64,000 nt of DNA, from the sequence record MZ189261.1; one strand, given 5' to 3'. This document shows, piece after piece, positions 2,520 through 32,154 of the stretch. This stretch comes from Escherichia phage S143_2. The translations under genes and the position numbers were made by a program. The notes under the pieces were generated by a model that saw only the letters and a program-made list of their open reading frames with translations, was not told the origin of the DNA and ran no database searches. Every line of letters begins with the position of its first letter. The stretch's first letter is position 1.

Positions 2520-3620
2520 TTATGCTGTGAAGATTTTATCCCACATCGCAACAACTGCATCTCGGTTATACTTCTTCCATACTGCTTCAGCACGTTTAAC
2601 TCGAGCTTCGTATGTATCAGTGAATTCTAATACAGCTTTTGTGTAAAGCGCAACTACTTCTTTCTTAGGAGTAGAGGAATCAATTTCTACACGCACAGTA
2701 TCTGGGTCGTATTCAAATGTCGCATGAGGATAATCCTTAAAAACTAACTGGATTACAGGGACACCTTTAGAGATGGCTTCAATAGAACTATTCTCTACTG
2801 TACCTGTGTCAGGACAAGTATTAATAAGTGCTTTAGCTGTTTTAAGACGTTCCATGATTTCACTGTGTGGAGCATCAATAATAACAGGATATTTAGCTGG
2901 TGGTGCCCATTTGCTTGGACAGTATCCTACACCATTTTCGCCTAGTGCTTTAATTGCTTCAAGAGCAACATCAGTGCGACGCATTTTAGTGTCATAACGT
3001 TGTGCACTAATAATCAGATCAGTCGCCGGAAGAACTTCAGGTTTCTCATTCAAACAAATAACCGGATAATCTTCGGCTTCAAACAACGGATTTGCTCGCC
3101 AATAATCATAATCAATTTTGTCAGTCAGACCTGAAGTCATATAACAATATTTGCGTTCAAATTCACGGAAGGCTTTAGTAGGAGCATAACTCTTACCACC
3201 ATTCTTATGAATTTGAATAGTCTGGTCCCAAATTTGAACAATGCCACGAGATACTGGTTCAAATGGTGTTGCCATAAAATTCTTATGAACTTTAGAGAGA
3301 CCTGCGTCTTTAATTGCCTGAACGGTTAGTTTAGTCGGTTCCATAGTAACAACAAAATCGTATTCATGGATGCCGGCTAGTTCAACAATCTTACGAGCCA
3401 TAGTATAACTCATACCTAGACTGAATTTAGTCAGATGACCAACAGGATGATGTGTAACTTTCCAGTCACCAAACGTGTCATTATCAAAGCCGATATAATC
3501 AATATCAGCACCGATGGACACAAGATATTTCAACACATTTAAATGTACTGCTTCAAGGCCACCTTGTACACGGTCAGGATTAAATGGGACTGCGCGAGAT
3601 GGGATAAACATAACTTTCAT
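2520..3620 (-). CDS. GT-B fold glycosyltransferase (GT4-like), candidate DNA glycosyl/arabinosyltransferase
   Basis: N-terminal MKVMFIPS...GG Rossmann start and C-terminal E-x7-E motif (ENSSIEAISKGVPVI); sits between rIIA.1 and gene 39. Confidence 0.6.
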   Translation of the reverse strand: MKVMFIPSRAVPFNPDRVQGGLEAVHLNVLKYLVSIGADIDYIGFDNDTFGDWKVTHHPVGHLTKFSLGMSYTMARKIVELAGIHEYDFVVTMEPTKLTVQAIKDAGLSKVHKNFMATPFEPVSRGIVQIWDQTIQIHKNGGKSYAPTKAFREFERKYCYMTSGLTDKIDYDYWRANPLFEAEDYPVICLNEKPEVLPATDLIISAQRYDTKMRRTDVALEAIKALGENGVGYCPSKWAPPAKYPVIIDAPHSEIMERLKTAKALINTCPDTGTVENSSIEAISKGVPVIQLVFKDYPHATFEYDPDTVRVEIDSSTPKKEVVALYTKAVLEFTDTYEARVKRAEAVWKKYNRDAVVAMWDKIFTA

Positions 3621-6151: not shown

Positions 6152-6153
6152 TA

Positions 6154-6810: not shown

Positions 6811-6850
6811 GATAGGTCTATAGTATCATAGACCATAGTTGTTGTACATC
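6811..6850 (-). promoter_or_regulatory. early promoter with stem-loop (variant -35)
   Basis: gataggtctatagtatcatagacc inverted repeat around -10 TACTAT; -35-like TGTACA. Confidence 0.4.
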
Positions 6851-7373: not shown

Positions 7374-7377
7374 ATTA

Positions 7378-7428
7378 TTCTCCTCTGGTTGATATGGTTA
7401 TAATATCAAAACCGGAGGAGAAGTAAAC
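7378..7428 (-). promoter_or_regulatory. early promoter with stem-loop enclosing -10
   Basis: minus-sense GTTTAC, 17 nt, TATTAT; arms ttctcctccggttttg / caaccagaggagaa, second arm carries the SD. Confidence 0.55.
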
Positions 7429-7432
7429 AACT

Positions 7433-7852: not shown

Positions 7853-7861
7853 AATAATTCC

Positions 7862-8392: not shown

Positions 8393-8422
8393 ATTTTTTC
8401 TCTCTTTGTTTAAGTTGAATTC

Positions 8423-8452
8423 ATTATACTCCAACCATCCTTGGTTGTAAAC
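8423..8452 (-). promoter_or_regulatory. early promoter cassette class A
   Basis: minus-sense GTTTAC, 18 nt with caaccaaggatggttg hairpin, TATAAT; same cassette at 49593 and 50613. Confidence 0.55.
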
Positions 8453-8457
8453 TGGTT

Positions 8458-9135
8458 TTATCGCTGTTTTACACTTAACGGATCAGGATTCTCAGGGACA
8501 TCTTCAAGGCCAAGCGCATAACGCTGGGCATATTTTAACATCAAAATATCTTTAGCACAATCATGAATACTATCATGGGCAACGAATCCTTTTAGCGTAC
8601 CCATTGGTAATGGACACATACTTAATCCTCGTGTCAACGAGTAAGCTTCGATTGCCGTACGAATATCGCGTTGAGCCCAGAATTTAACCGGTTCTAATTT
8701 ATCAGTATCAATCTCTGGTTCAGGAACACCTTCATCACGATAGAGGTCACGAATCAAATCAACCAAGATCGGGAAGTCAAAGCTCATACCACGGCACCAC
8801 ATCTGTGATTTCCATTGGTCAACTTTATTAGCTCGACAATAATCTAAAAAGATTTTAATGCCTTCAAGCGTAGTGACATCGTCTTCAGACGGAGCCAAGT
8901 TTTTACGTGCTTCAGCCGATTGTTCTTTCCACCATTTCATAGTGGATTTAGCGAAAACTCGCTTCCCTTTCTGAGAAGCTAAATTAAATTTAATTCGCTT
9001 ACCTCGTTGAACAAGTTCTTCAAATGATTCAACAACTTCAGGGTCGGAATTATATGCAATAACCGCAAGGTCAATAACAGCCGCTTTTGATGTATTGCCG
9101 AATGTTTCAAAATCTATAATAACATCAGTGCTCAT
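8458..9135 (-). CDS. dexA: exonuclease A (DnaQ-like 3'-5' exonuclease)
   Basis: IIDFETFG exo motif, 225 aa, synteny with dda. Confidence 0.8.
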   Translation of the reverse strand: MSTDVIIDFETFGNTSKAAVIDLAVIAYNSDPEVVESFEELVQRGKRIKFNLASQKGKRVFAKSTMKWWKEQSAEARKNLAPSEDDVTTLEGIKIFLDYCRANKVDQWKSQMWCRGMSFDFPILVDLIRDLYRDEGVPEPEIDTDKLEPVKFWAQRDIRTAIEAYSLTRGLSMCPLPMGTLKGFVAHDSIHDCAKDILMLKYAQRYALGLEDVPENPDPLSVKQR

Positions 9136-9144
9136 AATTTTCTC

Positions 9145-10458
9145 TCAAATAAAATGGACGTCAAACCGACCACGAGTTGTGCCGACATACAATAACTGTT
9201 TAGCTAATTCTGAATCAGCGTAATGGATACACGGTGTATAAACAAAGGCCGTGTCAACAGACATACCCTGGGCCTTATGGAAGGTTGATACTGGTAGTGC
9301 CTTCACCTTAGTGAACATACGTTTAGCATCCCAGAATTCGCTCCATGGAGCTTTACCACCTTTATTCCAAAATTTGTATGTTTCTGCGGTCTTAGCCAAA
9401 AACAAATTGAACTTATAAAGCTCTTCTTCAGAAGAAATAACCTTTATATCTTCGCGGATGTATTCTTCATCATCCCCGTATGTTTCTACTGTAAGATTCC
9501 AGTATCGTATCATATATTCGCCTGAAACACCACGTGCTTTAACAAATGTAGACGTTTCTACAGCATCTCGAATACGAACGAATTGGCCGTTATTGAAAAG
9601 CATTTCGGTCATATTTTTACCATCTAGCTTATATGTCTTAGTAAATGGCTCTTGTAGAACAATGACTTCGTCTTTAATAAATGGTTTTTCTGTTTCAAGA
9701 AGTTTTCGGCGAATAATTGAATTTAACTTGTCCACCGACTTATTTGTGAATGCCATCATTCGATTTTCGAAAAGGTCTTCAGGAGTTTTAACGACGTTAA
9801 AATAGTTCATCATATACGATTTAAGGTCTGTATATCCATGAACACCGTGCCCATCAACTACTTTATCATAAATCCATTTCCCATTACGAATATCAGTCGC
9901 AACATCAATAATTGGTGCATTGCTACGTTTAACTTCTGTAAGGTTGCATTGCACGAAGTCTTTGTGGGTGAAGAAAGGACTTAGATACGCAGTTGATTCG
10001 CCTGGGTCTACCGGACGAATCTGGCAACGGTCGCCGATTCCAATTACTGTACACCATTTAGGGATACTAGCTAACATTATTTTAAACAGAGAACGGTCGC
10101 ACATTGACGCTTCATCAAATAACAGTACACGACACAAGGCTAAGTCTGGAACCTTTTTCTGTTCAAACAATACGTTTTCTTCGTATGTAGTTGGGTTGAT
10201 TTTAAGAATGCTATGAATAGTCGATGCTTCTTGACCAGCAAGTTTACTTAGAACCTTTTTAGCGGCATGTGTAGGGGCTGCTAAAATAATACCTGATTCT
10301 CCAGAAGAAATAAGGGCTTCAACGATGAATCTAGTAAGGGTTGTTTTACCTGTACCAGCAGGCCCATTAATAGTTACGTGATGTTTCTTTTCTTTAATAG
10401 CGTTCATAACAACGTTGAAGGCGTTTTTCTGGCCTTCAGTCAAATCATCAAATGTCAT
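9145..10458 (-). CDS. dda: Dda DNA helicase (SF1B)
   Basis: Walker A GPAGTGKTT, 437 aa, MTFDDLTEGQKNAF start typical of T4 Dda. Confidence 0.9.
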   Translation of the reverse strand: MTFDDLTEGQKNAFNVVMNAIKEKKHHVTINGPAGTGKTTLTRFIVEALISSGESGIILAAPTHAAKKVLSKLAGQEASTIHSILKINPTTYEENVLFEQKKVPDLALCRVLLFDEASMCDRSLFKIMLASIPKWCTVIGIGDRCQIRPVDPGESTAYLSPFFTHKDFVQCNLTEVKRSNAPIIDVATDIRNGKWIYDKVVDGHGVHGYTDLKSYMMNYFNVVKTPEDLFENRMMAFTNKSVDKLNSIIRRKLLETEKPFIKDEVIVLQEPFTKTYKLDGKNMTEMLFNNGQFVRIRDAVETSTFVKARGVSGEYMIRYWNLTVETYGDDEEYIREDIKVISSEEELYKFNLFLAKTAETYKFWNKGGKAPWSEFWDAKRMFTKVKALPVSTFHKAQGMSVDTAFVYTPCIHYADSELAKQLLYVGTTRGRFDVHFI

Positions 10459-14256: not shown

Positions 14257-14778
14257 TCAGTAACCATTATCCTGGCGTTCAAAGTTGTGTTGGTTTTTCA
14301 AGTAGTAAAGTTTAAAGATTTCTTCAGCAGAAAGACCCAGACCTTGGAACATGTTCAGAACGAAGTGCAGAATATCAATCATCTCAAATTTAATTTCAAG
14401 CTGGTCTTCAGGAGACAGTTCATCGATACGACGATTACGATATTCAGCATGTTGTGCTTTCCACGGCTTCCATACACTGCTGGCGGCTTTTTCACCATTG
14501 CTCATACCACCAAGTGAAGTCAGCAGTTCACGGAATTCATCATCAATATAATCTTTCTGATTACGCAGCCAATCAACAACGTCGCCTGCAGTGGCCAATT
14601 CATCAGGATGTTTGTTATGTTCAGGCTTGTCATTTGCCAAACGAACCTGTAAAGATTTCTGCATATCAAGCATTACCTGAAGTGGGTCTTTATCTTCGTG
14701 AATCAGAGCATTAAAATAAGCTTCTTCTGCTTTATCAACACCAGAAATAAGTTGTGAACATTCGTTAAAGTGTGCCAT
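14257..14778 (-). CDS. 56: dCTP pyrophosphatase (dCTPase) gp56
   Basis: MAHFNEC start, MazG-like, conserved LANDKPEH / ETAGDVVDW blocks; start set to ATG behind GGAAA SD. Confidence 0.85.
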   Translation of the reverse strand: MAHFNECSQLISGVDKAEEAYFNALIHEDKDPLQVMLDMQKSLQVRLANDKPEHNKHPDELATAGDVVDWLRNQKDYIDDEFRELLTSLGGMSNGEKAASSVWKPWKAQHAEYRNRRIDELSPEDQLEIKFEMIDILHFVLNMFQGLGLSAEEIFKLYYLKNQHNFERQDNGY

Positions 14779-17817: not shown

Positions 17818-18066
17818 TTATTCTTTTTCGCGAATAATAATTACTTGTTGAGGCTGTAGAGCAGATTTCTTTTCGGCAACGATAGACCAAATTAAAGTTC
17901 CAATCCAACCAACCATCGTCCAGTTAAAGAGTAAAGATACGAAGAAGATTGCTGTTGTGCTTTTTGTGCCACGAATAAGTGCGATTACCCAAGGCAACAT
18001 GTAAATGATGATTGAACCAATACCTGCGATTAAAACTGCTACTGAACTAGCTACGAATAATTCCAT
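17818..18066 (-). CDS. imm: superinfection immunity (Imm)-like membrane protein
   Basis: two TM segments, IALIRG...WT.VGW motif typical of the Imm family. Confidence 0.55.
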   Translation of the reverse strand: MELFVASSVAVLIAGIGSIIIYMLPWVIALIRGTKSTTAIFFVSLLFNWTMVGWIGTLIWSIVAEKKSALQPQQVIIIREKE

Positions 18067-22834: not shown

Positions 22835-22853
22835 AAAAACTTTAAACAGGCTC

Positions 22854-23402
22854 TTAACGAGCCCATTTGATAATTTCTGTAATCAAATTATTACGTTCGC
22901 TTGCATTAAATCCTATAACTTTGTTAGCACCATCATGATTAAGTAATTGATACGTTTGGATTTTGTTATGAATTGCAAACTCTTCAAAATATGAAATGAC
23001 TGTATTAAAACCAAATGAAGACAAAGTAATAAGGTCGTCTTCAAAACTTTCAGTCATTTCGTTACGTGTTAAAATAATTGTGAACACATCATGGTTTTGG
23101 CAAAGACGAACATAATCCTGTTCATAAACGTCAAGAACCGAGTCCACATCTTGTCGAATACGTCCATAAACCCAGTTACTAATATATCCACGGTCTAACA
23201 GATAAATCTTAGTAGGGTCTAAATAATTCAACATCGTTTCGAAACAGCCAACTTCATTTCGAGACTTAACATCGAAACGTCCATCAACTGTTCGTTTAGG
23301 GAAATCAATCTTTACATATCTTTCACTAATTTCCATTATGTCATTAATGAAAGTTGTTTTACCAGCATTATCCGGGCCATCTACTAAAATAATTTTAGCC
23401 AT
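22854..23402 (-). CDS. P-loop nucleotide kinase, thymidylate-kinase-like
   Basis: Walker A DGPDNAGKTT and LLDRGYIS (DRY-like); 182 aa; at the bgt position. Confidence 0.5.
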   Translation of the reverse strand: MAKIILVDGPDNAGKTTFINDIMEISERYVKIDFPKRTVDGRFDVKSRNEVGCFETMLNYLDPTKIYLLDRGYISNWVYGRIRQDVDSVLDVYEQDYVRLCQNHDVFTIILTRNEMTESFEDDLITLSSFGFNTVISYFEEFAIHNKIQTYQLLNHDGANKVIGFNASERNNLITEIIKWAR

Positions 23403-23403
23403 T

Positions 23404-24303
23404 TTATTCCTCGATTACGACATCTTCATATTTAGGTATATTATACGGTGAAGAAATTAAAGCATTAAAGTAGATGAACTCACCAAGACCTGGATGGAAT
23501 ACTTCTTCAGGATTTTCGAAATATTGAATCTTCGGACGTCCTTTAAGAATTTGATAGTACTCAGTTTTAGTTGGTTTAAAAATTCGAATCAACGCTTCTT
23601 CAGGATACTTATTTCTGTCGAAGCTATTATTTGGATCGGTTATATAAAGCGGTTGGCCTAATTGAATTGCACATTCAACCACTTGTTCAAAACGATAGCA
23701 CGGGTCACTAATTCGAAATGGATGAAAAATACCATCTAGATGAATAGGAGCCAAATCACCTACAAGACGCTGCATGATGGAAGGACGTATAACTTTCTGC
23801 GTTACGATAATCTTATTACCATCTGCACCTGCGTTAACCAGCACTTCTTTTTGACGTTCATTCAACACAGTAGTTTGAAGTGAACGATTAACCGACAACA
23901 TATCAGTTTTTAAGAATTCGTCAATATAAAAACGTGGTTTATTAGGGTCTGCAGTGATATTGAAATTGAATTCCACATCAAAAGCGCCGTCATATCCGGT
24001 GATATCTGTGATTAGAAAATCACAATCATAATAAGCAATTAATGAATCAACCACAAATTCATTTTCAGACCAGAAATATTTACGAGTGTTATACGCGTTA
24101 TCTTTATACCATAATGGAACAAACTTAAATTCTGGGAAAAGACGTTCACATTCTTTAATATCAGATGCATTACGTGGATATGTAATCACATCACCAGGAT
24201 TAGCACGGTGCAAATGAAGTTGGAAGTTGCCATCCTTAAGGATAGCGTACTGTCCAGTTTCATAAGACCGCATACTCAAGATAGGTACGCGGAAAATAGC
24301 CAT
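23404..24303 (-). CDS. hypothetical protein (299 aa) at the bgt position
   Basis: start overlaps stop of gene 42 (TAATG); no motif recognised. Confidence 0.5.
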   Translation of the reverse strand: MAIFRVPILSMRSYETGQYAILKDGNFQLHLHRANPGDVITYPRNASDIKECERLFPEFKFVPLWYKDNAYNTRKYFWSENEFVVDSLIAYYDCDFLITDITGYDGAFDVEFNFNITADPNKPRFYIDEFLKTDMLSVNRSLQTTVLNERQKEVLVNAGADGNKIIVTQKVIRPSIMQRLVGDLAPIHLDGIFHPFRISDPCYRFEQVVECAIQLGQPLYITDPNNSFDRNKYPEEALIRIFKPTKTEYYQILKGRPKIQYFENPEEVFHPGLGEFIYFNALISSPYNIPKYEDVVIEE

Positions 24304-25019
24304 TAGTCAAGGAATCCTTTAACATAATCAAAATCACGTTCAAACACATGGGCACTTACCATGGTATGAGTATAATCACCAACTTCTACACCGCATTCGT
24401 TAGCGATATAATGAAGTAATTTTCCTTGGAGATAAAAATCCAACTGCATAACAACAGCACAGTTCTGAGAACGCATATGACAGTGGGTATAAAGCTTACC
24501 ATCACGAATATAATAAGTTACTGAGTCAGTACATGGATATTCAAGCGTTTCGTCTGAATCAAGCAAAGCCTGATCAGAACTTTCTAGAATTTGGAACACA
24601 ACTCTTCGAGAGTTAGGCTTCTCTTTAAGTTCTTTTAGAAGAGCTGGTAATTGGGCCGCAATGCGAGGACCATAGAAAGTGTTGAAGTTCGCCGGCAAAA
24701 CATCTGATTTTGGTTTAGAAATAAATTTAGCGACATTAGGATATGCCTTAAACGCTTCTTCTGCGTTGGTACCACCAGAAATCATAAACTTCCAGAAGTC
24801 TTCGGCATATTCATAAGAGATGCGGTTAATACGTGGGTCAGTCATTTTGAATGATGACGGAGTGTCAACAACTACTGTCATAGACCCAATTTCATTACAA
24901 CGTCCAATACGAGAATCAGTTACGAATTCCGGGTTTTCTAAAATTTCACGATTGACTGCTTTAAATGCGGTTTGAAAATCTGCGGCTTTGATATATTTCA
25001 TTGTGTTATGTTTTCCCAT
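24303..25019 (-). CDS. 42: dCMP hydroxymethylase-like (thymidylate synthase family)
   Basis: 238 aa; EYPCTDSVTYYIRD...MRSQN resembles the catalytic-Cys region of T4 gp42; synteny. Confidence 0.65.
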   Translation of the reverse strand: MGKHNTMKYIKAADFQTAFKAVNREILENPEFVTDSRIGRCNEIGSMTVVVDTPSSFKMTDPRINRISYEYAEDFWKFMISGGTNAEEAFKAYPNVAKFISKPKSDVLPANFNTFYGPRIAAQLPALLKELKEKPNSRRVVFQILESSDQALLDSDETLEYPCTDSVTYYIRDGKLYTHCHMRSQNCAVVMQLDFYLQGKLLHYIANECGVEVGDYTHTMVSAHVFERDFDYVKGFLD

Positions 25020-25038
25020 GTTTACCTCAATACAATTT

Positions 25039-25064
25039 ATTATATACTCAATTCGTAAAGCTTA
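25039..25064 (-). promoter_or_regulatory. possible MotA-box middle promoter upstream of gene 42
   Basis: minus-sense AGCTTTA, 11 nt, TATAAT, GAGGT SD. Confidence 0.3.
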
Positions 25065-25200
25065 TTTGAATTTCTTGACAATGTTGATATAACGTAAAGC
25101 TTCAGCATCGATACTTCCAAGAACACTATGAAGAAATGCATCAGCGTAGTATTCCAATTAAACAGGTTCTTTAATCACTTTAGCCGCTTTAGTTTCAAAC

Positions 25201-25221
25201 AGGCCCATCAGGGCCTTTTTA
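25201..25221 (+). terminator. plus-strand hairpin plus T5
   Basis: aggccc-atca-gggcct followed by ttttt on plus strand. Confidence 0.3.
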
Positions 25222-25297
25222 AGAATTTGTTCGATGCTGTTAATTTTCATAGCCAAAATCTCTTCGTTAAGTTGGTGGTTAAAAGTTTTTCTAGAAA

Positions 25298-26458
25298 TCA
25301 TTCTGGGTACCTCAAAGCGTCGTCAGAGTTAGTTATATCAATAATAGATATAGAATTTTCTGATAACCCATTTTTAGATAACTGACGTTTATAATATCTT
25401 TCACAATATGTACACGTCGTCCCGCAGATTTCATTAGCACAATCGAAATCCGGATGTTTGAACCACCTTTTTTCTAAAAAGCCATCTAACAAAGAGGTTT
25501 CAATATTTACCGTATGTGAAAACTCGGTCTCATTTTCAAGAGTGAAAATGGTCTCTAAAGGCTTCCACAATTCCAACAAATTACCTTCAAATTTTTCAGA
25601 AGCATAAGCTTCAAGAACTTTCAAAATGTAGTCTGTGCTACCTGTACGTCCTGAAACTTTGAATTGAGTGATACCGATATCATTATAAAGTTTCAAATCT
25701 TGAGGACGAACAAAACGAGTTCTCAACCAGTTAAATGGGTCTGTATCACGAGCTTTAATACAGTGCTGCATTGGATATCCATTTAAGGATTTGGCATCAT
25801 CTACTGTAACATCGGTGCTATGGAAAATATAGCAAGAGTCACGATAGCTACAATGTGTTGTATACCCTTTACCAGCATTAGAGCAGAATTCATTTACGAG
25901 AACTTCAAATATTATATTGTTCTTATTACAAAACTCTGCTGCACGCTTCAGGAAAGAAACTGAACGGTTCTTATGAATTCCACAGCAGACCTTTTTGATA
26001 TTATATTGGTCATGCAAGTATTTGATTTGAGTTACAGCATCGACATGTAGAATTGTTGAAACTTCAATCTCAATGTCTTTATTGACTTCACGAACAATTT
26101 CCATAACAACAGGGTTAGCGATAGTAATACGCCATACGCCTATTGACCAAAGATACTGAACATAATCCTGAATAGCTTTCTTCTTCCACTCAACTAGTTC
26201 TCTTTTTGAACCAGGATTTATCGTGTTGAGTGTATAGTTAAAGCAAATACCTAATTCGTTACAACGTTTAACGTAATCTTCTAACATCTTTTTGTCAACG
26301 TCGGGAAGCCTAAAATCAGGTCTGGCTGCTACAAAAGCCATTTCTCTTGTAGAGCCGTATACTTCGTTTATCAAGCTATTAGGATAAGTTTTATTGAGCT
26401 CTACGATTTTATCAAGAAGAGCTAAATCAAAATTCGTTCCGATTTTAAAGGTATTCAT
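25298..26458 (-). CDS. U32-like protein with C-terminal CX3CX2C cysteine cluster
   Basis: 386 aa; EVLVNEFC...C...C resembles U32 core; C-terminal CANEICGTTCTYC. Confidence 0.5.
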   Translation of the reverse strand: MNTFKIGTNFDLALLDKIVELNKTYPNSLINEVYGSTREMAFVAARPDFRLPDVDKKMLEDYVKRCNELGICFNYTLNTINPGSKRELVEWKKKAIQDYVQYLWSIGVWRITIANPVVMEIVREVNKDIEIEVSTILHVDAVTQIKYLHDQYNIKKVCCGIHKNRSVSFLKRAAEFCNKNNIIFEVLVNEFCSNAGKGYTTHCSYRDSCYIFHSTDVTVDDAKSLNGYPMQHCIKARDTDPFNWLRTRFVRPQDLKLYNDIGITQFKVSGRTGSTDYILKVLEAYASEKFEGNLLELWKPLETIFTLENETEFSHTVNIETSLLDGFLEKRWFKHPDFDCANEICGTTCTYCERYYKRQLSKNGLSENSISIIDITNSDDALRYPE

Positions 26459-26513
26459 TTTTGCATCTCGCGTTAATTGTTGCGATGGTTTTTTGCAGGT
26501 CTTACTTAAATTA

Positions 26514-26900
26514 TTATAGATTCGGTTTATATGATTTAAATGTTTCGAATTCGCCTTTATTCATAAGAGCTTTGAATTCGTCAGGACGCATAGCTTTGTC
26601 GTCGATAATCCAATCATATACTGGTTTATGTGTTAGCAAATTATGGTACTTCAATCCAATGTTTGCCAAGTTCTGAATCAGACTTGGGAGAATGTCAATT
26701 GCTATACGACCAGGACCGACTGACTTCATACCGCGAGCAGTGTAAAGCGTTATGGTATGCCCTGCATCATACAGGGCATTAATGGCAGACACCATTTCGA
26801 CGTCTGGTTTGAAGTTCACGTAATCACGATTGTTATTCCACTCTGTTATACAATCATCGACATCAAAACAAAGATTAAGCATGTTTTTTACACGGTGCAT
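26514..26900 (-). CDS. HAD-superfamily phosphatase-like protein
   Basis: FDVDDCIT near N-terminus, TLYTARG, WIIDDKA; start overlaps upstream stop. Confidence 0.45.
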   Translation of the reverse strand: MHRVKNMLNLCFDVDDCITEWNNNRDYVNFKPDVEMVSAINALYDAGHTITLYTARGMKSVGPGRIAIDILPSLIQNLANIGLKYHNLLTHKPVYDWIIDDKAMRPDEFKALMNKGEFETFKSYKPNL

Positions 26901-28585
26901 TAGATTCGTTCCCATTGATGAGTGATATCGCCACCGATTGGACGATAAGAAACACCAGTTTCTTTATCAGTTAGTACCCATTTACCAGGATTTTTTGTAA
27001 TCAGAGTAGCCGTTACAGGTTCTGCTACATCATAACTAATAGTGCCGTCCTGAAGTACACGGCCCATGTTACGTAATTGCTTAGTCAGAAGTTCCATACC
27101 TTTATAATATGCGGCTACCGCTTTAAGTGGATTATTCTTGAAATAACCACCTAATGCAATCCAGATAATTGCCACTGCCAAATGATGATACTCGTTAAAC
27201 GAACTCATCTTTCCATATTTGTAAACTAATGGATTGATGTTAATAGTCACATTACAAGTTGTTTCATCAATAGTAAACTGACCCCAGGTCGGATTAGCGT
27301 TGAATTCATCATAACCTGAAACAGCGTAAAGCACTTTAGCTTCATCATACAATTTTGGCCCGTAAATCTTGGTTTCACCAAAATATCCACGAGGGTCAAT
27401 AAACTTGACTTCGCCGTTATCAGTAATCATAGTATTACTGAAGTTCGGGTCACCATGAATAACAGAGTACTGTCCCTGAGAACGGTTATGATAACGAATA
27501 AGGTGTTCTAAAGCTTGTTTCAGCATTGGCTTCAGACGCCCAATCTTAGTGTAGTTCACATGTGTGATTTTACCAAATGAATCAATCAATGGTTGAATAC
27601 TTTCACAACGATCAATAACTTTCGTATAGAACTCTTTAGTGAAATCACGACGAACAGTTTCAGGACTTACAAAATAAGTGTCTGTGCTGAATTTCAGTGC
27701 GTCTAAAATTGCATCAACAATTTGTGGACGAGCAAGACTTGATTTGGATTTAATATATTCAAATGCCGGCTTACCTTTAATGCGTTCCATTTCAAAGTTA
27801 TTTTCATTAACAGAAACTAACTGAGGAACTGAATCTGATTTCACTTTAAGATACCATGAAATCTCATCTTTCTGAAGAGCTCGGCCCTGTTCGGTTAATG
27901 CGAATTTAGTTACAGTTTCTTCACCAATTTCAACTGCATTAAAACTACGATTAAGTTCACGAACTTCATGAGCTTTTTCAAGTTTAGGCATATCACCTAA
28001 ATCAATTAGATTCATAAGCTCTGATTTATTGAATGCGCTGCCGTAAAGGAATTCTACGAAATCGCGTCCTTTGCAGTATTCATGAATTTCCTCATCAGTA
28101 GAACCCATATAGAATTCCCAGTCTTTGAACTGATAAATTCCTACAACATTACCACCTGTTGAACCTACGTTAGTGATATTTTCACCGTCGAAATTATATC
28201 GACATTCGTCGCCCTTAACATAGATTGCGTTAACATTCCAAGACCATGAACCAAAATCAGGAATAATATCACACCAGTTAACAATTACATTATGGCCGTC
28301 TAAATCTTTGTGTAATTTAGCAAGAGCATAAGCGGAACCATACGCTTCATCAACTGTACGAATAGTCACATTGAACCCTTCTTGCTCACAATAAGCTCGA
28401 ACAGTTTCAGCAAATTTTGAATGAACTACTACAATAATTTCATCTGCGCCAAGGTCAGAATAAATTGTATACAAATTGCTCAGAATAGTGTCTTGTTTAT
28501 AGTTAACAAGCACCTTAGGAATATGATGCGTTATTGGATACAAACGAGTTGCCAGTCCAGCACCAAGAATAACAGCTTTTTTCAT
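26900..28585 (-). CDS. bifunctional sugar-1-phosphate nucleotidyltransferase (N) / sugar kinase (C)
   Basis: N-terminal MKKAVILGAGLATRLYPIT...PK NTase signature; C-terminal HGDPNFSN...IDPRG Brenner motif; 561 aa. Confidence 0.7.
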   Translation of the reverse strand: MKKAVILGAGLATRLYPITHHIPKVLVNYKQDTILSNLYTIYSDLGADEIIVVVHSKFAETVRAYCEQEGFNVTIRTVDEAYGSAYALAKLHKDLDGHNVIVNWCDIIPDFGSWSWNVNAIYVKGDECRYNFDGENITNVGSTGGNVVGIYQFKDWEFYMGSTDEEIHEYCKGRDFVEFLYGSAFNKSELMNLIDLGDMPKLEKAHEVRELNRSFNAVEIGEETVTKFALTEQGRALQKDEISWYLKVKSDSVPQLVSVNENNFEMERIKGKPAFEYIKSKSSLARPQIVDAILDALKFSTDTYFVSPETVRRDFTKEFYTKVIDRCESIQPLIDSFGKITHVNYTKIGRLKPMLKQALEHLIRYHNRSQGQYSVIHGDPNFSNTMITDNGEVKFIDPRGYFGETKIYGPKLYDEAKVLYAVSGYDEFNANPTWGQFTIDETTCNVTININPLVYKYGKMSSFNEYHHLAVAIIWIALGGYFKNNPLKAVAAYYKGMELLTKQLRNMGRVLQDGTISYDVAEPVTATLITKNPGKWVLTDKETGVSYRPIGGDITHQWERI

Positions 28586-28626
28586 GTTGTGGTCCTCATT
28601 GGTAAGTAGGAGTATTGTACACTATT

Positions 28627-28770
28627 CTAGTTAAAGCATTCATACTTTGCTTGTAGTCCAATCATAATCCATCCGGTTATAAGAGTCGGAATCATTACTG
28701 GAGCCGTTAAGCTCCAGTAGATAGTCATGACAAGCATCAATAGTAAAAGTCCTATTGTTATTGCTTTCAT
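28627..28770 (-). CDS. small hydrophobic protein (47 aa, below cutoff)
   Basis: ATGA overlap with upstream stop; hand translation MKAITIGLLLLMLVMTIYW... Confidence 0.3.
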   Translation of the reverse strand: MKAITIGLLLLMLVMTIYWSLTAPVMIPTLITGWIMIGLQAKYECFN

Positions 28771-29402
28771 TGTTCGCCTCGTAACATGGCACCTAGTGCA
28801 CCGCCAGGGTGGAACTTAAGGAAGTCATTAGAGGTAAATCCACGTTCAGACGAAAGGTTGATAGCAAACGTATCGATAAGCGCTAACAACAATGTAGTGG
28901 ACATAGTCGGAGCCAGAGAATTCTCATCAACCTCTACTGCGATGCCTGTACAGAAAGAGTAATCAAAAAGGGCTTCATTTTCTTGTGGAATGTCTGGGTT
29001 ACAATGCAACAGAATCTGTTTGACGTTCGGACGAATCATTTTAAGATGCTTAGCCACGCCTATCATTTCTTCAGTTTTACCAGAACGACTAATATGAATC
29101 AACACATCATTAGGCGCAATGAATCCTGCATCACCGTGAGAATAATGCCCGGTGTTCAAGTACATACTCGGGATACCAAGTGAAGCAAATGTCTCAGAAG
29201 CTTTAGTTGCAATATTAGCATTCTTACCCACACCTGTAATAATTACACGACTTTCATAATTACTAAGTCCAGGGCGTCGAAGAGTTTCTAGAATAGCATT
29301 ATAACGAGCAGGGTTTTGACTAATTACTTTGGCCATAGCGGCCAAAGAAGAAGCTTGTTTTATGATTGCGTCAATAGCGATAGTAATAGGAGTAGTTTTC
29401 AT
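28767..29402 (-). CDS. SIS-domain sugar-phosphate isomerase, KdsD-like arabinose-5-phosphate isomerase
   Basis: VIITGVGKN, HGDAG, APTMSTT, FHPGGALG motifs line up with the KdsD SIS domain; 211 aa. Confidence 0.7.
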   Translation of the reverse strand: MKTTPITIAIDAIIKQASSLAAMAKVISQNPARYNAILETLRRPGLSNYESRVIITGVGKNANIATKASETFASLGIPSMYLNTGHYSHGDAGFIAPNDVLIHISRSGKTEEMIGVAKHLKMIRPNVKQILLHCNPDIPQENEALFDYSFCTGIAVEVDENSLAPTMSTTLLLALIDTFAINLSSERGFTSNDFLKFHPGGALGAMLRGEQ

Positions 29403-29442
29403 ATTTCTCTCATTTAATTAGTTTACCGTCCATGTCATTATA

Positions 29443-32154
29443 TCAAAAATCGAACATATCGAACAGAGATGCTTTCTTCTCGTAATCGAGTTTCGCTGCT
29501 GATGTGAATCCTTCAAGTGGTTTAATAAATGTCTTCTCAAGGAGAACAGTGTAGTCCATCCAATGAAGTACATCGTCTTTAATTAAATCTGTGATTTCAG
29601 TGCCAGAAGGCCATGCGATACATTTATCACCGAATGGGTTTCCTTCACGTAAAGGCAGAACATATACTTTTTCACCTTCTACAACTTGCGGTGCATCGAT
29701 ATTACCTTTGATAGCCCGGTTATACGTCAGAATTCCACGAATATGGAATGGGCATTTGGGACCAGGGAATCCACCTACATCATATTTAGCAATGTTATTC
29801 GCAGAAGATACCGACGCGATGCTAATATAATTCAATTGACGGAATTCTTTTTCAAACTCTTTAAAATATTCTTGTAATGATTCTTCACCTTCTTGAAGCA
29901 TACGACGAATACATTCTTTAAGAGCTTTCTGTACTGCTTTAGGAGTCGAAGATTTCTGAGTCTCTAGACCCATGATTTTGAGTTTAGGCTCAGCGTAACG
30001 AGTACCTTCCATATCCCACACGTTTAATGCATAACGTTTCTTACCAGTCCAGAATCCACCAATACCTTTAGAACCGAGTGGAGGCCCAGCGATAGCTTCT
30101 CGGTCCATGAACATTAAGTGTTGTTTATTGTTCATGTATTCACACATTTCACGGAAACCTCTATCAATAGCTGGTTCCATACGTTCACGTGCAAACTTAT
30201 CTAAGAAGTCTACCCAATGGTTGGTATCACGGAATTTAGATTCACCAACCTTATCGATAATTTTATCAGCAGATACGTAAATAGAGTCTGTATCACCATA
30301 AAGAACGAAAGCTTCACCTTCCGTACCACAAACTTCATTCAGATATTCATTAACTTTACGTTCAATCCACTGTAAAGCCATTTGTCCGAATGTTGTGATT
30401 GCAGTAGCATTACGCAAATCATAATAACGGAACCAAACGTTGCCAAGTGCACCATAAAGTGAGTTGATAAGCAATTTACGGTTAATTTGGGCAGTCATAC
30501 CTGCAACTTCAGTACGTTGAGCTCTAAACAACATTTCATTAAGAGATTTAGCAGACAACTTTTTAATCTTTTCTTTAATCTCATCGCTGAAGTCGAAACG
30601 ATAATCAACATCTAATGGTTCGTCAACAGAAAGATTAGGATTATGCAATGCCTCTTTAATTATTTCACCATTACGTTGAGCTGCAAGCATGTAACCTTTA
30701 TGTTCTTTACGTTGATTAAAGACCTTAGTGATTTCAGTTGGAACTACACCATCACGGTCTTTATAATACATCATGCCGTTAGGAGAACAACTGTACACAT
30801 CAGAAGGACGTTCAGCAACAGCGTTAATATAATCATGCAATGGAGCTACTTTAAACGTTCCTGCTATTGTTTCTGGGCTAATATTCACTTGGCGAATAAT
30901 ACTTGGATACAGAGATGTAAGGTCGAAACTCATTACATATTTGTATCGATTTGGAATAGGTTCCTTAACAAAAGCGCCAGGATAAGGTTGAACCGGGTGA
31001 GAACGACCTTGTGGAATCACCTTGTTCTGCTCTTTAAGGCTATTAAAAATAATAGCATCCCATGTTTTAATTGGACTAAACACAGATTGAATCTGTATCT
31101 TAGCATAATAACCCATGTCCAAACTCAAGTTGATGAACTGACGCTTAGCATCAATTTGCAATACACGATACACGTCGATAATGTTATAAGAAATATATCG
31201 TTGGTGATTGCTTTCACGAAGCTTAGAAATAGGGCCGTCATATTTCAGTTTACCAACGTTCAATTCAAATTCTGAAATGTAATCCAGAGAATACGACGGT
31301 TGATTGGTAAAAGAGAATTTTTTGTAAAGGTCAATGTAATCAAGAACAGATATACCGAACAATGTAATGATTTCACGAGAACCATACATGTTTTCGATAA
31401 CTTTAACACGAGTTTTACGATGCGGTGATAAACGTTTCGCAGTAGATTCGCCAAAAATATTCTTGATTCGGTTATACACATACGGAATATCAAATGACTC
31501 AACGTTCCATCCAGTCAAAATGACAGGAGTTTTCTGTTGCCAGAAGTTGAGATATTCCATCAACAATTCTTTTTCGTTATCGAACGGCATATAAATGATT
31601 TTATCGATAATTTCGGATGGAACTTCATCACCGCCCTGTTCTTGAAGCTTAGCAGCGATTTCAATAGACCATTCTTCCACATTACCGTATGGAGAATTCA
31701 ATAGATCAAATACGTAGAACCTGTCGTCAATTGAGTCATAATGGGTGATAGCATCAATCGGATGTTTTGCTTGTGACGGCTCAGGGAACCCATCGGGAGA
31801 TGTTACTTCGATGTCGAAGTTAGCCACACGAATTTTTGTATGGTCGTATTTGATTTCATAGTTATAAGTGTCAGACAAATACGCCAATTTGAAATCGTCC
31901 ATGCCAAGTGCTTCAAGACCGATATCTTCCATGCGTTTAATCCATTGGGAGGCATCACGCATATTGGCGAACAACTTACGAGTACACGGCTTACCGTAGA
32001 TATCGAAATATTTCGTAGCCTGACTTTCCGGACAATGAGCAAACAGTGATGGTTTATATTCTACTTCACGAGTACGTTCACGGCCATTAGAATCGATGTA
32101 ACGTTCAAAAATTGAATCACCAATCTGTTCAACCGTTAAGTAAAATTCTTTCAT
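29443..32154 (-). CDS. 43: DNA polymerase gp43 (family B)
   Basis: 903 aa, exo motifs (FDIE), pol motifs (SLYPS, YGDTDS), MKEFYLT start. Confidence 0.95.
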   Translation of the reverse strand: MKEFYLTVEQIGDSIFERYIDSNGRERTREVEYKPSLFAHCPESQATKYFDIYGKPCTRKLFANMRDASQWIKRMEDIGLEALGMDDFKLAYLSDTYNYEIKYDHTKIRVANFDIEVTSPDGFPEPSQAKHPIDAITHYDSIDDRFYVFDLLNSPYGNVEEWSIEIAAKLQEQGGDEVPSEIIDKIIYMPFDNEKELLMEYLNFWQQKTPVILTGWNVESFDIPYVYNRIKNIFGESTAKRLSPHRKTRVKVIENMYGSREIITLFGISVLDYIDLYKKFSFTNQPSYSLDYISEFELNVGKLKYDGPISKLRESNHQRYISYNIIDVYRVLQIDAKRQFINLSLDMGYYAKIQIQSVFSPIKTWDAIIFNSLKEQNKVIPQGRSHPVQPYPGAFVKEPIPNRYKYVMSFDLTSLYPSIIRQVNISPETIAGTFKVAPLHDYINAVAERPSDVYSCSPNGMMYYKDRDGVVPTEITKVFNQRKEHKGYMLAAQRNGEIIKEALHNPNLSVDEPLDVDYRFDFSDEIKEKIKKLSAKSLNEMLFRAQRTEVAGMTAQINRKLLINSLYGALGNVWFRYYDLRNATAITTFGQMALQWIERKVNEYLNEVCGTEGEAFVLYGDTDSIYVSADKIIDKVGESKFRDTNHWVDFLDKFARERMEPAIDRGFREMCEYMNNKQHLMFMDREAIAGPPLGSKGIGGFWTGKKRYALNVWDMEGTRYAEPKLKIMGLETQKSSTPKAVQKALKECIRRMLQEGEESLQEYFKEFEKEFRQLNYISIASVSSANNIAKYDVGGFPGPKCPFHIRGILTYNRAIKGNIDAPQVVEGEKVYVLPLREGNPFGDKCIAWPSGTEITDLIKDDVLHWMDYTVLLEKTFIKPLEGFTSAAKLDYEKKASLFDMFDF

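What the first reader, a model, noticed from the sequence alone, without database searches (positions are those of the whole stretch)
25298..29402. Apparent complete arabinose nucleotide-sugar pathway inserted between genes 42 and 43
Where T4 has only imm/imm.1, this window has four to five genes in transcription order: a KdsD-like SIS isomerase (28767..29402), a fused sugar-1-P nucleotidyltransferase/kinase (26900..28585), a HAD-like phosphatase (26514..26900) and a U32-like Cys-cluster protein (25298..26458). The logic mirrors ADP-heptose or GDP-D-arabinose routes: ribulose-5-P -> arabinose-5-P -> free or 1-phosphorylated arabinose -> NDP-arabinose. Together with gene 42 and gp56 nearby, a separate glycosyltransferase, and no alpha/beta-gt genes, this predicts an arabinosylated hydroxymethylcytosine genome built from a phage-encoded sugar donor. 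Arabinosyl-hmC is known in RB69-type phages; I cannot say from memory whether this pathway has been characterised.
Basis: partly seen in the sequence, partly recalled or inferred. Interest (0 to 1): 0.85.

Follow-up and report, generated by a model that had tools for sequence, protein, structure and literature searches.

The report
Phage arabinosyl-hydroxycytosine DNA modification cluster
This is the already published gene cluster with which RB69-type phages make UDP-arabinose and attach it to 5-hydroxycytosine (not hydroxymethylcytosine) in their DNA; its one unexplained gene, a so-called U32 peptidase, looks like an oxygen-independent back-up enzyme for making the hydroxycytosine.

Summary
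On the minus strand between the DNA polymerase and the gene-42 homologue lie a SIS isomerase, a fused nucleotidyltransferase/kinase, a HAD phosphatase and a U32 protein, at the stated coordinates. The window is a Mosigvirus. Its cluster proteins are 96.8-99.5% identical to those of phage HY126.

The pathway is already known. It was flagged in RB69 in 2018 and characterised in 2025-26: ribulose-5-P, arabinose-5-P, arabinose-1,5-bisphosphate, arabinose-1-P, UDP-arabinose.

The "gene 42" here is a flavin- and O2-dependent 5-hydroxy-dCMP synthase, and the DNA base is arabinosyl-5-hydroxycytosine, not arabinosyl-hmC.

The U32 protein is probably not a sugar-pathway enzyme. It keeps the residues essential in RlhA and TrhP, the prephenate-dependent, O2-independent pyrimidine C5 hydroxylases. 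In other genera it is translationally coupled to a chorismate mutase and the hydroxylase. In 40 distant loci it sits with the same glycosyltransferase and kinase but almost never with a thymidylate-synthase homologue. All eight cellular-genome hits are in anaerobe lineages.

I propose, without proof, that it is an anaerobic route to 5-hydroxy-dCMP. I found no paper stating this, but two key papers were unreadable.

The parts
28767..29402 (-). D-arabinose-5-phosphate isomerase, SIS domain only with no CBS pair (RB69 gp55 homologue): ribulose-5-P to arabinose-5-P
   Evidence: Pfam SIS 1e-10. NCBIfam KpsF/GutQ 2e-32 and KdsD 7e-31, matching only profile positions 47-202 of 328. 2 aa differences from the HY126 protein.
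28627..28770 (-). 47-aa hydrophobic ORF (RB69 ORF054c-like), function unknown, conserved between the isomerase and the bifunctional enzyme
   Evidence: ORF. 1 aa difference from HY126. Counterparts annotated in Yersinia phage TG1 and phage EcS1 and found by jackhmmer in L023, L025, L034 and L038.
26900..28585 (-). Bifunctional enzyme (AfhE-like; RB69 gp52:53). The C-terminal kinase makes arabinose-1,5-bisphosphate; the N-terminal nucleotidyltransferase makes UDP-arabinose from arabinose-1-P
   Evidence: NTP_transferase 8.5e-10 at residues 3-99. Weak kinase hits at 308-409 and the HGDPNFSN motif at 377. 96.8% identical to the HY126 protein. Activities as summarised in PMC13326640.
26514..26900 (-). 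HAD-family phosphatase (AfhF-like; RB69 gp51): removes the 5-phosphate of arabinose-1,5-bisphosphate
   Evidence: TIGR01689 4.2e-13. DVDD motif at residue 18 of the 133-aa form. 1 aa difference from HY126. Function as summarised in PMC13326640.
25298..26458 (-). U32-family Fe-S-type protein (RB69 gp50). Proposed O2-independent, prephenate-dependent cytosine-C5 hydroxylase (inference)
   Evidence: Pfam U32 6.3e-11. AF2 model pLDDT 90, best PDB fold hit U32 5d88. RlhA is the best E. coli paralogue by hhalign, E 7.7e-6, with E190/C203/C209 on RlhA E161/C169/C176. Context evidence.
25063..25301 (-). RB69 ORF049c homologue, broken here by a CAA to TAA nonsense codon at codon 48. It occupies the slot that holds a chorismate mutase in other genera
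   Evidence: Translation and alignment with RB69 and HY126. No similarity to phage chorismate mutases (hhalign probability 0.2%). The stretch is variable, with indels.
24303..25019 (-). Thymidylate-synthase-family 5-hydroxy-dCMP synthase (RB69 gp48), not a dCMP hydroxymethylase
   Evidence: 5 aa differences from PDB 9iqc/9ir2/9iqu, the same 5 as against HY126. N186 = D169N, D194 = N177D, E160 = L143E, C163 = C146 in alignment A3. Activity shown for RB69 gp48 in PMC13326640.
23404..24303 (-). First DNA arabinosyltransferase (RB69 gp46:47, intact here)
   Evidence: 98-99% nucleotide identity to RB69 ORF046c+047c, with the 1-nt difference that joins them. 2 aa differences from HY126. Assignment from PMC13326640.
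22854..23402 (-). Thymidylate-kinase-like nucleotide kinase (RB69 gp45)
   Evidence: Weak P-loop and dTMP-kinase hits. 98.5% nucleotide identity to RB69p045. Structural assignment in PMC13326640.
22844..22868 (-). Terminator-like hairpin at the 3' end of the cluster
   Evidence: 10-pair stem followed by a T-rich tail, right after the kinase stop codon. Consensus match only.
2520..3620 (-). Second DNA arabinosyltransferase (RB69 ORF003c homologue)
   Evidence: 97.7% nucleotide identity to RB69p003. ORF of 366 aa. No Pfam hit. Assignment from PMC6024577 and PMC13326640.
14257..14778 (-). gp56 dCTPase homologue, which supplies dCMP and removes dCTP
   Evidence: 92.6% nucleotide identity to RB69p028. 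ORF.

Best explanation
The region is the sugar-donor half of the arabinosyl-5-hydroxycytosine DNA hypermodification cluster of a Mosigvirus (RB69 group).

Shown elsewhere, for proteins 96.8-99.5% identical:
1. The SIS isomerase converts ribulose-5-P to D-arabinofuranose-5-P.
2. The C-terminal kinase of the fused enzyme phosphorylates C1 to give arabinose-1,5-bisphosphate.
3. The HAD phosphatase removes the 5-phosphate.
4. The N-terminal nucleotidyltransferase makes UDP-arabinose.

In parallel, the adjacent thymidylate-synthase homologue hydroxylates dCMP to 5-hydroxy-dCMP with a flavin and O2. Kinases raise it to the triphosphate and the polymerase incorporates it. Two glycosyltransferases (23404..24303 and 2520..3620) then arabinosylate the 5-OH on DNA.

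Inferred here: the U32 protein is not part of the sugar route. It is a prephenate-dependent, O2-independent Fe-S hydroxylase that gives the phage a second, anaerobic route to 5-hydroxy-dCMP. This would mirror the TrhP/TrhO dual pathway for tRNA 5-hydroxyuridine.
For: Gene calls and family assignments.

Identity of the window:
- The cluster is 97-99% identical to 152 Mosigvirus records and collinear with RB69 gp45-gp55.
- Window proteins differ from HY126's by 1-5 residues; the bifunctional enzyme is 96.8% identical.

Hydroxylase:
- 5 residues from PDB 9iqc.
- D169N/N177D/L143E signature.

Published chemistry and pathway: PMC13326640, PMC13390438, PMC6024577.

U32 inference:
- Pfam U32 above its cut-off.
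- E190, C203 and C209 are invariant in 30 homologues and align with RlhA E161/C169/C176, residues essential in RlhA and TrhP.
- U32, chorismate mutase and hydroxylase are translationally coupled in Entb_45, P545, LC53 and EcS1. In Yersinia phage TG1 a 65-aa ORF separates U32 from the mutase, which overlaps the hydroxylase. U32 and mutase move as a pair in Thanatos.
- The phage mutase keeps the catalytic residues of the E. coli enzyme.
- Of 40 distant U32 loci, 21 carry the gp46:47-like transferase, 24 the gp45-like kinase and 8 a chorismate mutase, including DAHP-synthase fusions. Only 1 carries a thymidylate-synthase homologue.
- One 44-kb viral contig, 88.6% covered, has none.
- All 8 hits among 100,044 species genomes are in anaerobe lineages.
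- 57 Acinetobacter phage records have the cluster without U32.
- U32 is the most conserved or second most conserved cluster protein across genera.
Against: - There are no chemical data for this particular phage.
- The U32 role is pure inference. No U32 protein has been shown to act on a deoxynucleotide.
- RlhA and TrhP themselves have not been reconstituted in vitro, according to the 2017 and 2019 papers.
- Lee et al. label gp50 'sugar or heterocycle reductase'.
- RB69 gp48 plus a kinase suffices to put 5hoC into E. coli DNA aerobically, so U32 is not required in air.
- Dhakaviruses infect E. coli yet lack U32.
- Mosigviruses, this window included, have no chorismate mutase.
- The Cys spacing (CX10CX5CX23C) differs from the RlhA CX6CX15CX3C pattern.
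- Absence of a thymidylate-synthase homologue was checked only within about 10 kb of U32, apart from one contig.
- He et al. 2026 and Mahler et al. 2025 could not be read.
Confidence: 0.85

Rival explanations
1. A gene-42 dCMP hydroxymethylase makes hmC. A four-enzyme route that includes U32 makes NDP-arabinose through free or 1-phosphorylated arabinose. The genome carries arabinosyl-hmC.
For: The original RB69 report called the base ara-hmC (PMC6024577). The gene belongs to the thymidylate synthase/gp42 family.
Against: NMR and MS re-determination shows an ether link to 5-hydroxycytosine, and 18O2 labelling shows O2 incorporation (PMC13326640). Durham phage NP agrees. The window enzyme has the D169N signature and is nearly identical to the crystallised HY126 hydroxylase.
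Confidence: 0.03
2. U32 is a sugar-pathway or redox enzyme, for example a 'sugar or heterocycle reductase' or an epimerase, acting on the arabinose donor.
For: Table 1 of PMC13326640 labels it this way. The BASEL annotation reads 'putative enzyme involved in UDP-arabinose biosynthesis'. It lies next to the HAD gene in this window.
Against: The three-enzyme route is complete without it. Acinetobacter phages and Dhakaviruses have the sugar genes without U32. Ten distant loci have U32 with the transferase, and in nine of them the kinase too, but no isomerase or nucleotidyltransferase. In L022 the sugar gene is a UDP-galactopyranose mutase instead. The chorismate mutase linkage has no place in a pentose pathway.
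Confidence: 0.12
3. U32 hydroxylates RNA, as its cellular relatives do. It might act on phage or host tRNA U34 or on 23S rRNA C2501 to tune translation, with a merely coincidental position in the cluster.
For: The only characterised pyrimidine-hydroxylating U32 proteins act on RNA. RlhA is the closest E. coli paralogue.
Against: It lacks RlhA's DUF3656, with no such Pfam hit. It is translationally coupled to the dCMP hydroxylase. It recurs next to a DNA glycosyltransferase, dNMP-kinase-like genes, dCMP deaminase, dUTPase/DCD, NT5C and dNK.
Confidence: 0.08
4. U32 hydroxylates cytosine after it is in DNA (post-replicative) rather than at the dCMP level.
For: RlhA and TrhP act on polymers. Nothing in the sequence defines the substrate.
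Against: A dedicated thymidylate-kinase-like gene accompanies U32 in 24 of 40 distant loci, and dCTPase/DCD-type genes lie nearby. Both point to a mononucleotide route.
Confidence: 0.12
5. U32 is what its name says, a collagenase-like peptidase, perhaps processing a phage or host protein.
For: Family name and database annotations.
Against: Ten invariant Cys and the E/C/C hydroxylase motif. No peptidase mechanism is known for the family. The genomic context is nucleotide metabolism throughout.
Confidence: 0.02

Closest known systems
Arabinosyl-5-hydroxycytosine system of phages HY126 (Afh proteins), RB69 (gp45-gp55, gp3), Bas46/47 and Serratia LC53 (He et al. 2026; Mahler et al. 2025; Lee et al. 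2026, PMC13326640)
   Same: Same genes in the same order, at 96.8-99.5% protein identity to HY126. Same hydroxylase signature. Both arabinosyltransferases are present.
   Different: Nothing substantive. Here gp46:47 and gp52:53 are intact, while the RB69 record has sequencing frameshifts. ORF049c carries a nonsense codon.
ADP-heptose pathway (GmhA isomerase, HldE kinase/adenylyltransferase, GmhB phosphatase)
   Same: Identical logic: SIS isomerase, then anomeric kinase giving a bisphosphate, then HAD phosphatase removing the distal phosphate, then nucleotidyltransferase. Kinase and transferase are fused.
   Different: The substrate is a pentose and the nucleotide is UDP. The kinase half looks like an aminoglycoside/choline-kinase type (HxDxxxxN) and gave no PfkB hit in the Pfam scan. 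The domain order is transferase then kinase.
T4 glucosyl-hydroxymethylcytosine system (gp42, gp56, gp1, alpha- and beta-glucosyltransferases)
   Same: The same strategy: dCTPase, a thymidylate-synthase-family enzyme modifying dCMP at C5, kinase, polymerase incorporation, then glycosylation on DNA.
   Different: Hydroxyl instead of hydroxymethyl, and flavin/O2 instead of folate. The sugar donor is phage-made, not host UDP-glucose. The transferases are unrelated.
Peptidase-U32 hydroxylases: RlhA (23S rRNA ho5C2501), TrhP (tRNA ho5U34), UbiU/UbiV (anaerobic ubiquinone), and the TrhP/TrhO dual pathway
   Same: U32 motif with the essential Glu and two Cys. Extra C-terminal Cys. Link to prephenate supply through an adjacent chorismate mutase in relatives. 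Pairing of an O2-independent enzyme with an O2-dependent one for the same C5 hydroxylation.
   Different: No DUF3656. Different Cys spacing. The presumed substrate is a deoxynucleotide. Only 20-25% identity over the aligned region, and the function is untested.
Rhizobium phage RL38J1 glycosyl-5-hydroxycytosine (PMC13326640)
   Same: 5hoC as the handle for sugars, with a phage-encoded sugar-nucleotide enzyme (UDP-galactopyranose mutase), as in the U32-bearing locus L022.
   Different: Hexoses rather than arabinose. The hydroxylase there is the thymidylate-synthase type, and no U32 is reported.

Membership tests
Arabinosyl-5-hydroxycytosine hypermodification cluster (RB69/HY126 type) | Thymidylate-synthase homologue with the 5hodCMP-synthase signature (D169N with N177D, E. 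coli ThyA numbering) | tested here: met
   In alignment A3, N186, D194, E160 and C163 align to D169, N177, L143 and C146. 5 residues from PDB 9iqc, which matches HY126. Pairwise aligners shifted the register by 2; the multiple alignment resolved it.
Arabinosyl-5-hydroxycytosine hypermodification cluster (RB69/HY126 type) | Arabinose-5-P isomerase, bifunctional kinase/uridylyltransferase and HAD phosphatase encoded together | tested here: met
   Profile hits, motifs, near-identity to HY126 proteins.
Arabinosyl-5-hydroxycytosine hypermodification cluster (RB69/HY126 type) | DNA arabinosyltransferases (gp46:47-like and ORF003c-like) | tested here: met
   Present by 97.7-99% nucleotide identity to the RB69 genes. 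The transferase fold was not re-tested here; it is taken from PMC13326640.
Arabinosyl-5-hydroxycytosine hypermodification cluster (RB69/HY126 type) | Virion DNA carries mono- or di-arabinosyl-5-hydroxycytosine in place of C | not testable with these tools
   Needs LC-MS or NMR. Shown for RB69, DLP3 and NP in PMC13326640 and PMC13390438.
T4-type glucosyl-hmC system | Folate-dependent dCMP hydroxymethylase (Asp retained at the ThyA-169 position), with alpha- and beta-glucosyltransferases | tested here: not met
   Asn at that position. The enzyme family is shown to be a flavin/O2 hydroxylase. No alpha- or beta-gt is annotated in the collinear RB69 region.
ADP-heptose pathway enzymes (GmhA/HldE/GmhB) | PfkB-type heptose kinase fused to a cytidylyltransferase-type adenylyltransferase | tested here: not met
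   No PfkB hit. The kinase half has an APH/choline-kinase-like motif, and the transferase half is the NTP_transferase (GlmU/RmlA) type. The resemblance is analogy of logic, not membership.
KdsD/GutQ arabinose-5-phosphate isomerases | SIS domain followed by a pair of CBS domains | tested here: not met
   The SIS domain matches (2e-32), but the protein is 211 aa and covers only KdsD profile positions 47-202 of 328. It is a SIS-only isomerase, as with PDB 3etn cited in PMC13326640.
Peptidase-U32 hydroxylases (RlhA/TrhP/UbiU/UbiV) | Peptidase_U32 domain above Pfam's gathering score | tested here: met
   42.4 bits against a cut-off of 22.4. The best PDB fold match is U32 protein 5d88.
Peptidase-U32 hydroxylases (RlhA/TrhP/UbiU/UbiV) | Essential Glu and two Cys of the U32 motif (RlhA E161/C169/C176; TrhP E162/C170/C177) | tested here: met
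   hhalign places E190, C203 and C209 on them. All three are invariant in 30 homologues. Essentiality is from PMC5727448 and PMC6599085.
Peptidase-U32 hydroxylases (RlhA/TrhP/UbiU/UbiV) | Four-Cys Fe-S site (CX6CX15CX3C in RlhA) and Fe-S dependence | tested here: inconclusive
   Ten invariant Cys, including C192/C203/C209/C233 and C340/C345/C349/C352, but with different spacing. Cluster binding cannot be tested.
Peptidase-U32 hydroxylases (RlhA/TrhP/UbiU/UbiV) | Dependence on prephenate and independence from O2 | not testable with these tools
   Indirect support only: an adjacent chorismate mutase in 51 isolate records and 8 distant loci, DAHP-synthase/mutase fusions, and restriction of the genome hits to anaerobes.
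RlhA orthologues | DUF3656 C-terminal domain | tested here: not met
   No such Pfam hit. The protein is 386 aa against 653 for RlhA.

The most novel reading that the evidence does not exclude
The U32 protein (25298..26458), together with the chorismate mutase that accompanies it in most other genera, is an oxygen-independent, prephenate-dependent hydroxylase that makes 5-hydroxy-dCMP (or 5-hydroxycytosine in DNA). If so, phages of facultative anaerobes carry two non-homologous hydroxylases for the same step: a flavin/O2 thymidylate-synthase type and an Fe-S/prephenate U32 type. Phages of strict aerobes keep only the first. A large group of uncultured phages of strict anaerobes keep only the second. 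This would be the first U32 hydroxylase acting on a DNA precursor. I found no statement of it in the searchable literature, but He et al. 2026 and Mahler et al. 2025 could not be read.
Probability: 0.45. Interest if true: 0.8.

Novelty: already known. Interest (0 to 1): 0.45.

Why it matters
The pathway itself is established. It explains how RB69-type phages, including therapeutic candidates, shield their DNA from restriction enzymes and CRISPR and become targets of type IV systems.

The U32 lead matters more. The published hydroxylase needs O2, yet these coliphages live in the gut. An anaerobic route would explain how modification is kept up there. It would extend the poorly understood U32/prephenate hydroxylation chemistry from RNA and quinones to DNA precursors. 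It would also give a marker (U32, gp46:47-like transferase and kinase, with no thymidylate-synthase homologue) for finding glycosyl-hydroxypyrimidine DNA in uncultured phages of anaerobes.

Tried and rejected
- He et al. 2026 and Mahler et al. 2025 are not held. Their content is known only through PMC13326640. That paper's supplements are not held either.
- Sequence search of the PDB with U32 alone or as a profile found nothing useful. The afdb50 fold library was unavailable.
- NCBIfam gave only a weak UbiU hit for U32, E 4.8e-4.
- hhalign against TrhP, UbiU and UbiV single sequences was weak or empty.
- I tested whether the window's ORF between U32 and the hydroxylase is a degraded chorismate mutase. 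There is no Pfam hit and hhalign probability is 0.2%, so I rejected it. It is the RB69 ORF049c homologue with a nonsense codon.
- Pairwise MAFFT and phmmer alignments to E. coli ThyA mis-registered the D169/N177 region.
- The sigma-70 promoter scan was not enriched over shuffles, 21 against 25 +/- 5.
- The listing of cluster members gave no host names.
- The Thanatos paper and the transposon-mutagenesis preprint say nothing about U32 or chorismate mutase.
- A strict aerobe-versus-anaerobe host rule for U32 among isolates fails for Dhakaviruses, which infect E. coli and lack U32.

Full report
**What is in the sequence.** All genes from 22854 to 32154 lie on the minus strand and are tightly packed. 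In transcription order they are:
- DNA polymerase, 29443..32154
- a 211-aa SIS protein, 28767..29402
- a 47-aa hydrophobic ORF, 28627..28770
- a 561-aa fused protein, 26900..28585
- a 128-133-aa protein, 26514..26900 or 26915
- a 386-aa U32 protein, 25298..26458
- a short broken ORF, 25063..25301
- a 238-aa thymidylate-synthase-family protein, 24303..25019
- a 299-aa protein, 23404..24303
- a 182-aa kinase-like protein, 22854..23402

A terminator-like hairpin follows at 22868..22844, and then uvsX.

- SIS protein: Pfam SIS 1e-10, KpsF/GutQ 2e-32 and KdsD 7e-31, covering only the SIS part of the KdsD profile.
- Fused protein: NTP_transferase 8.5e-10 at residues 3-99. The C-terminal half has weak kinase hits and an HGDPNFSN motif.
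- Small protein: HAD-type capsule phosphatase TIGR01689 4.2e-13, with a DVDD motif.
- U32 protein: Peptidase_U32 6.3e-11.

**What the window is.** The 4.5-kb stretch is 97-99% identical, over most of its length, in 152 phage records, all Mosigvirus-type coliphages and Shigella phages. The window is collinear with RB69 from rIIA onward. It is not the RB69 record itself. RB69's ORF046c/047c and ORF052c/053c are single intact genes here, which fits the sequencing errors reported for RB69. Every cluster protein differs from its counterpart in phage HY126 by only 1-5 residues. The fused enzyme is 96.8% identical.

**It is already known.**
- Thomas et al. 2018 (PMC6024577) found arabinose in RB69 DNA and pointed to this module, especially ORF055c and ORF53_52c, as candidates for UDP-arabinose synthesis.
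- Lee et al. 2026 (PMC13326640) give the pathway, summarising He et al. 2026 on HY126 and Mahler et al. 2025. Ribulose-5-P goes to arabinofuranose-5-P (gp55), then to arabinose-1,5-bisphosphate (kinase half of gp52:53, AfhE). The phosphatase (gp51, AfhF, Mg-dependent) gives arabinose-1-P. The transferase half of AfhE gives UDP-arabinose.
- Table 1 of that paper still lists the older order through free arabinose. The text version follows the biochemistry.

The kinase half, however, looks like an aminoglycoside/choline-kinase type and gave no PfkB hit in the Pfam scan. This is analogy, not membership.

**The chemistry needs correcting.** The base is not hydroxymethylcytosine. RB69 and DLP3 DNA carry arabinose joined by an ether bond to 5-hydroxycytosine. 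RB69 gp48 makes 5-hydroxy-dCMP, binds a flavin and incorporates 18O from O2. Durham phage NP agrees, and that paper calls the ara-hmC assignment erroneous.

I tested the window's enzyme in two ways.
- It differs at five residues from PDB chains 9iqc/9ir2/9iqu. Those are the same five differences it has from the HY126 protein.
- In a multiple alignment with E. coli ThyA it has Asn at D169, Asp at N177, Glu at L143 and the catalytic Cys. This is the published signature.

Pairwise aligners misplaced this register.

Both arabinosyltransferase genes (23404..24303 and 2520..3620) and the gp56 dCTPase (14257..14778) are in the window. I therefore predict mono- and di-arabosyl-5-hydroxycytosine DNA. 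T4's imm lies elsewhere in this window, at 17818..18066.

**The U32 protein is the open piece.** PMC13326640 does not include it in the sugar route. It appears only in Table 1 as "sugar or heterocycle reductase". The discussion there notes that RNA pyrimidine hydroxylation uses other enzymes, but does not connect them to gp50.

Those enzymes are U32 proteins.
- RlhA makes 5-hydroxycytidine in 23S rRNA and needs prephenate and Fe-S biogenesis.
- TrhP makes tRNA 5-hydroxyuridine, needs prephenate and works without O2. It is backed up by the O2-dependent TrhO.

The phage protein models confidently (pLDDT 90), and its best PDB fold match is the U32 protein 5d88. Of the four E. coli paralogues, RlhA aligns best (hhalign E 7.7e-6 over 204 columns). 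In that alignment E190, C203 and C209 fall on RlhA E161, C169 and C176. Those residues are essential in RlhA, as are their equivalents in TrhP. They are invariant in 30 homologues, together with seven more Cys. Four of those form a C-terminal CX4CX3CX2C group.

**Context in related isolates.**
- In Enterobacter, Klebsiella, Serratia LC53, Edwardsiella, Erwinia and EcS1 phages, a 75-114-aa chorismate mutase sits between U32 and the hydroxylase. The start and stop codons overlap on both sides.
- In Yersinia phage TG1 a 65-aa ORF separates U32 from the mutase, which overlaps the hydroxylase.
- In Shewanella phage Thanatos the U32-mutase pair sits elsewhere in the cluster.
- The mutase gives Pfam CM_2 2.4e-10 and keeps the catalytic Arg, Arg, Lys, Glu, Ser and Gln of the E. 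coli enzyme.
- Chorismate mutase makes prephenate.
- Among 50,697 isolate records, 342 have the hydroxylase, 221 have U32 and 51 have this mutase.
- All 57 Acinetobacter phage records lack U32. So do the Dhakaviruses.
- Across genera U32 is 79.5-86.7% identical. It ranks first among the cluster proteins in three of four comparisons and second in the fourth.

**Context in distant relatives.** Homologues at 40-58% identity are all on phage-like contigs. They lie beside dCMP deaminase, thymidylate-kinase-like genes, dUTPase/DCD, NT5C, deoxynucleoside kinase and DNA polymerase III alpha.

I scanned 40 such loci with iterated profiles.
- 21 carry a homologue of the window's first arabinosyltransferase. 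Direct phmmer gives 3e-12 and 2.6e-11.
- 24 carry the gp45-like kinase.
- 11 carry the AfhE-like enzyme; 8 of those also carry the isomerase.
- 8 carry a chorismate mutase. In three of these it is fused to a DAHP synthase.
- Only one carries any thymidylate-synthase homologue, and that one looks like an ordinary ThyA.

Typical gene orders are kinase, transferase, U32, second transferase; or transferase, isomerase, AfhE-like, kinase, DAHP-synthase/mutase, HAD, U32. One 43,970-bp viral contig, covered to 88.6%, has no thymidylate-synthase homologue.

A scan of one genome from each of 100,044 species found eight loci, all in anaerobe lineages: Erysipelotrichales, Lachnospiraceae, Romboutsia (twice), a Bacillota MAG, Tannerella, Phocaeicola faecalis and BRC1. 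Three of these show U32, mutase and transferase in a row.

**Interpretation.** There are three states: thymidylate-synthase type only, both types, or U32 only. That is the pattern expected of two non-homologous enzymes doing the same step. The O2 requirement of the first enzyme and the known O2 independence of U32 hydroxylases explain who carries which. I therefore think U32 is an anaerobic, prephenate-dependent route to 5-hydroxy-dCMP. My confidence is about 0.45-0.5.

The weak points:
- There is no biochemistry, and U32 hydroxylases themselves were not reconstituted in the papers I read.
- The Cys spacing differs from RlhA's.
- Dhakaviruses lack U32.
- The thymidylate-synthase absence was mostly checked only within about 10 kb.
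- Two key papers were unreadable.

**The mutase slot in this window.** Mosigviruses have no chorismate mutase. The slot holds the homologue of RB69 ORF049c (79 aa, intact in RB69). Here a CAA to TAA change at codon 48 cuts it short, and in HY126 frameshifts break it. It has no detectable similarity to the mutases, and the stretch is unusually variable. E. coli's own PheA and TyrA would supply prephenate. That last point rests on established knowledge and was not tested here.

**Verdict.** The finding is real and correctly located. The pathway it predicts is already published, so novelty is "already known". The residual interest lies in the U32 hypothesis.

Noticed in passing
window 25063..25301 (-): The RB69 ORF049c homologue (79 aa, intact in RB69) is cut to 47 aa here by a CAA to TAA nonsense codon and is frameshifted in HY126. 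It appears dispensable and decaying, in the position where other genera carry a chorismate mutase.
   Followed up: yes
window 28627..28770 (-): A 47-aa strongly hydrophobic ORF between the isomerase and the bifunctional enzyme is conserved in HY126, Yersinia TG1, EcS1 and several IMG/VR T4-like loci. RB69's note calls the region 'similar to T4 42-imm intercistronic region'. Function unknown.
   Followed up: partly
L048 8411-9430, L051 7317-8354, L052 8353-9384: Uncultured phages encode a DAHP synthase fused to a chorismate mutase, next to a HAD gene and U32. That is a phage-borne entry enzyme of the shikimate pathway, apparently to boost prephenate supply. The fusion was confirmed by Pfam only for L051; L048 and L052 have the mutase hit and a similar length.
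   Followed up: partly
L004 13227-14360 and L005 8422-9555: A second, much more distant U32 paralogue (E 6.6e-17 to the window protein) lies beside a radical-SAM/SPASM protein and a nucleoside-deoxyribosyltransferase-like gene. The same contig has the closer U32, NT5C and dNK, and also encodes a dockerin/GH43 protein.
   Followed up: no
L003, L006, L020 (metagenome contigs; L003 is from a 466-kb contig): A conserved block: radical-SAM/SPASM, a 400-aa protein with a weak queuosine-mannosyltransferase-like hit (checked in L003 only), thymidylate-kinase-like gene, UDG with DNA polymerase III alpha (adjacent genes in L003, fused in L006 and L020), dCMP deaminase (L003 and L006 only), U32, a 250-aa unknown, SSB. 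This may be a different pyrimidine hypermodification in very large phages.
   Followed up: no
L022 and L045 (viral contigs): U32 is followed by a TET-associated-glycosyltransferase-like protein, a dUTPase/DCD-like gene and a UDP-galactopyranose mutase (the last two Pfam-annotated for L022; L045 has ORFs of matching lengths). This suggests galactofuranosylated hydroxypyrimidine DNA in phages without any thymidylate-synthase homologue.
   Followed up: partly
window 23404..24303 and 26900..28585: Both genes that are split in the RB69 GenBank record (ORF046c/047c and ORF052c/053c) are single intact ORFs here, each differing by a 1-nt indel. This independently supports the reported RB69 sequencing errors.
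   Followed up: yes
window 17818..18066: The imm homologue lies about 7 kb from the 42-43 interval in this phage, as in RB69. The arabinose and U32 genes occupy the position that imm/imm.1 hold in T4 rather than sitting beside them.
   Followed up: partly
L008 (phage IME08, Dhakavirus) 4131-9175: Dhakaviruses have the AfhE-like, HAD, kinase, hydroxylase and transferase genes but no U32, no chorismate mutase and no recognisable SIS isomerase. An unannotated 166-aa ORF sits where the isomerase would be. They may rely on host KdsD/GutQ for arabinose-5-P.
   Followed up: no
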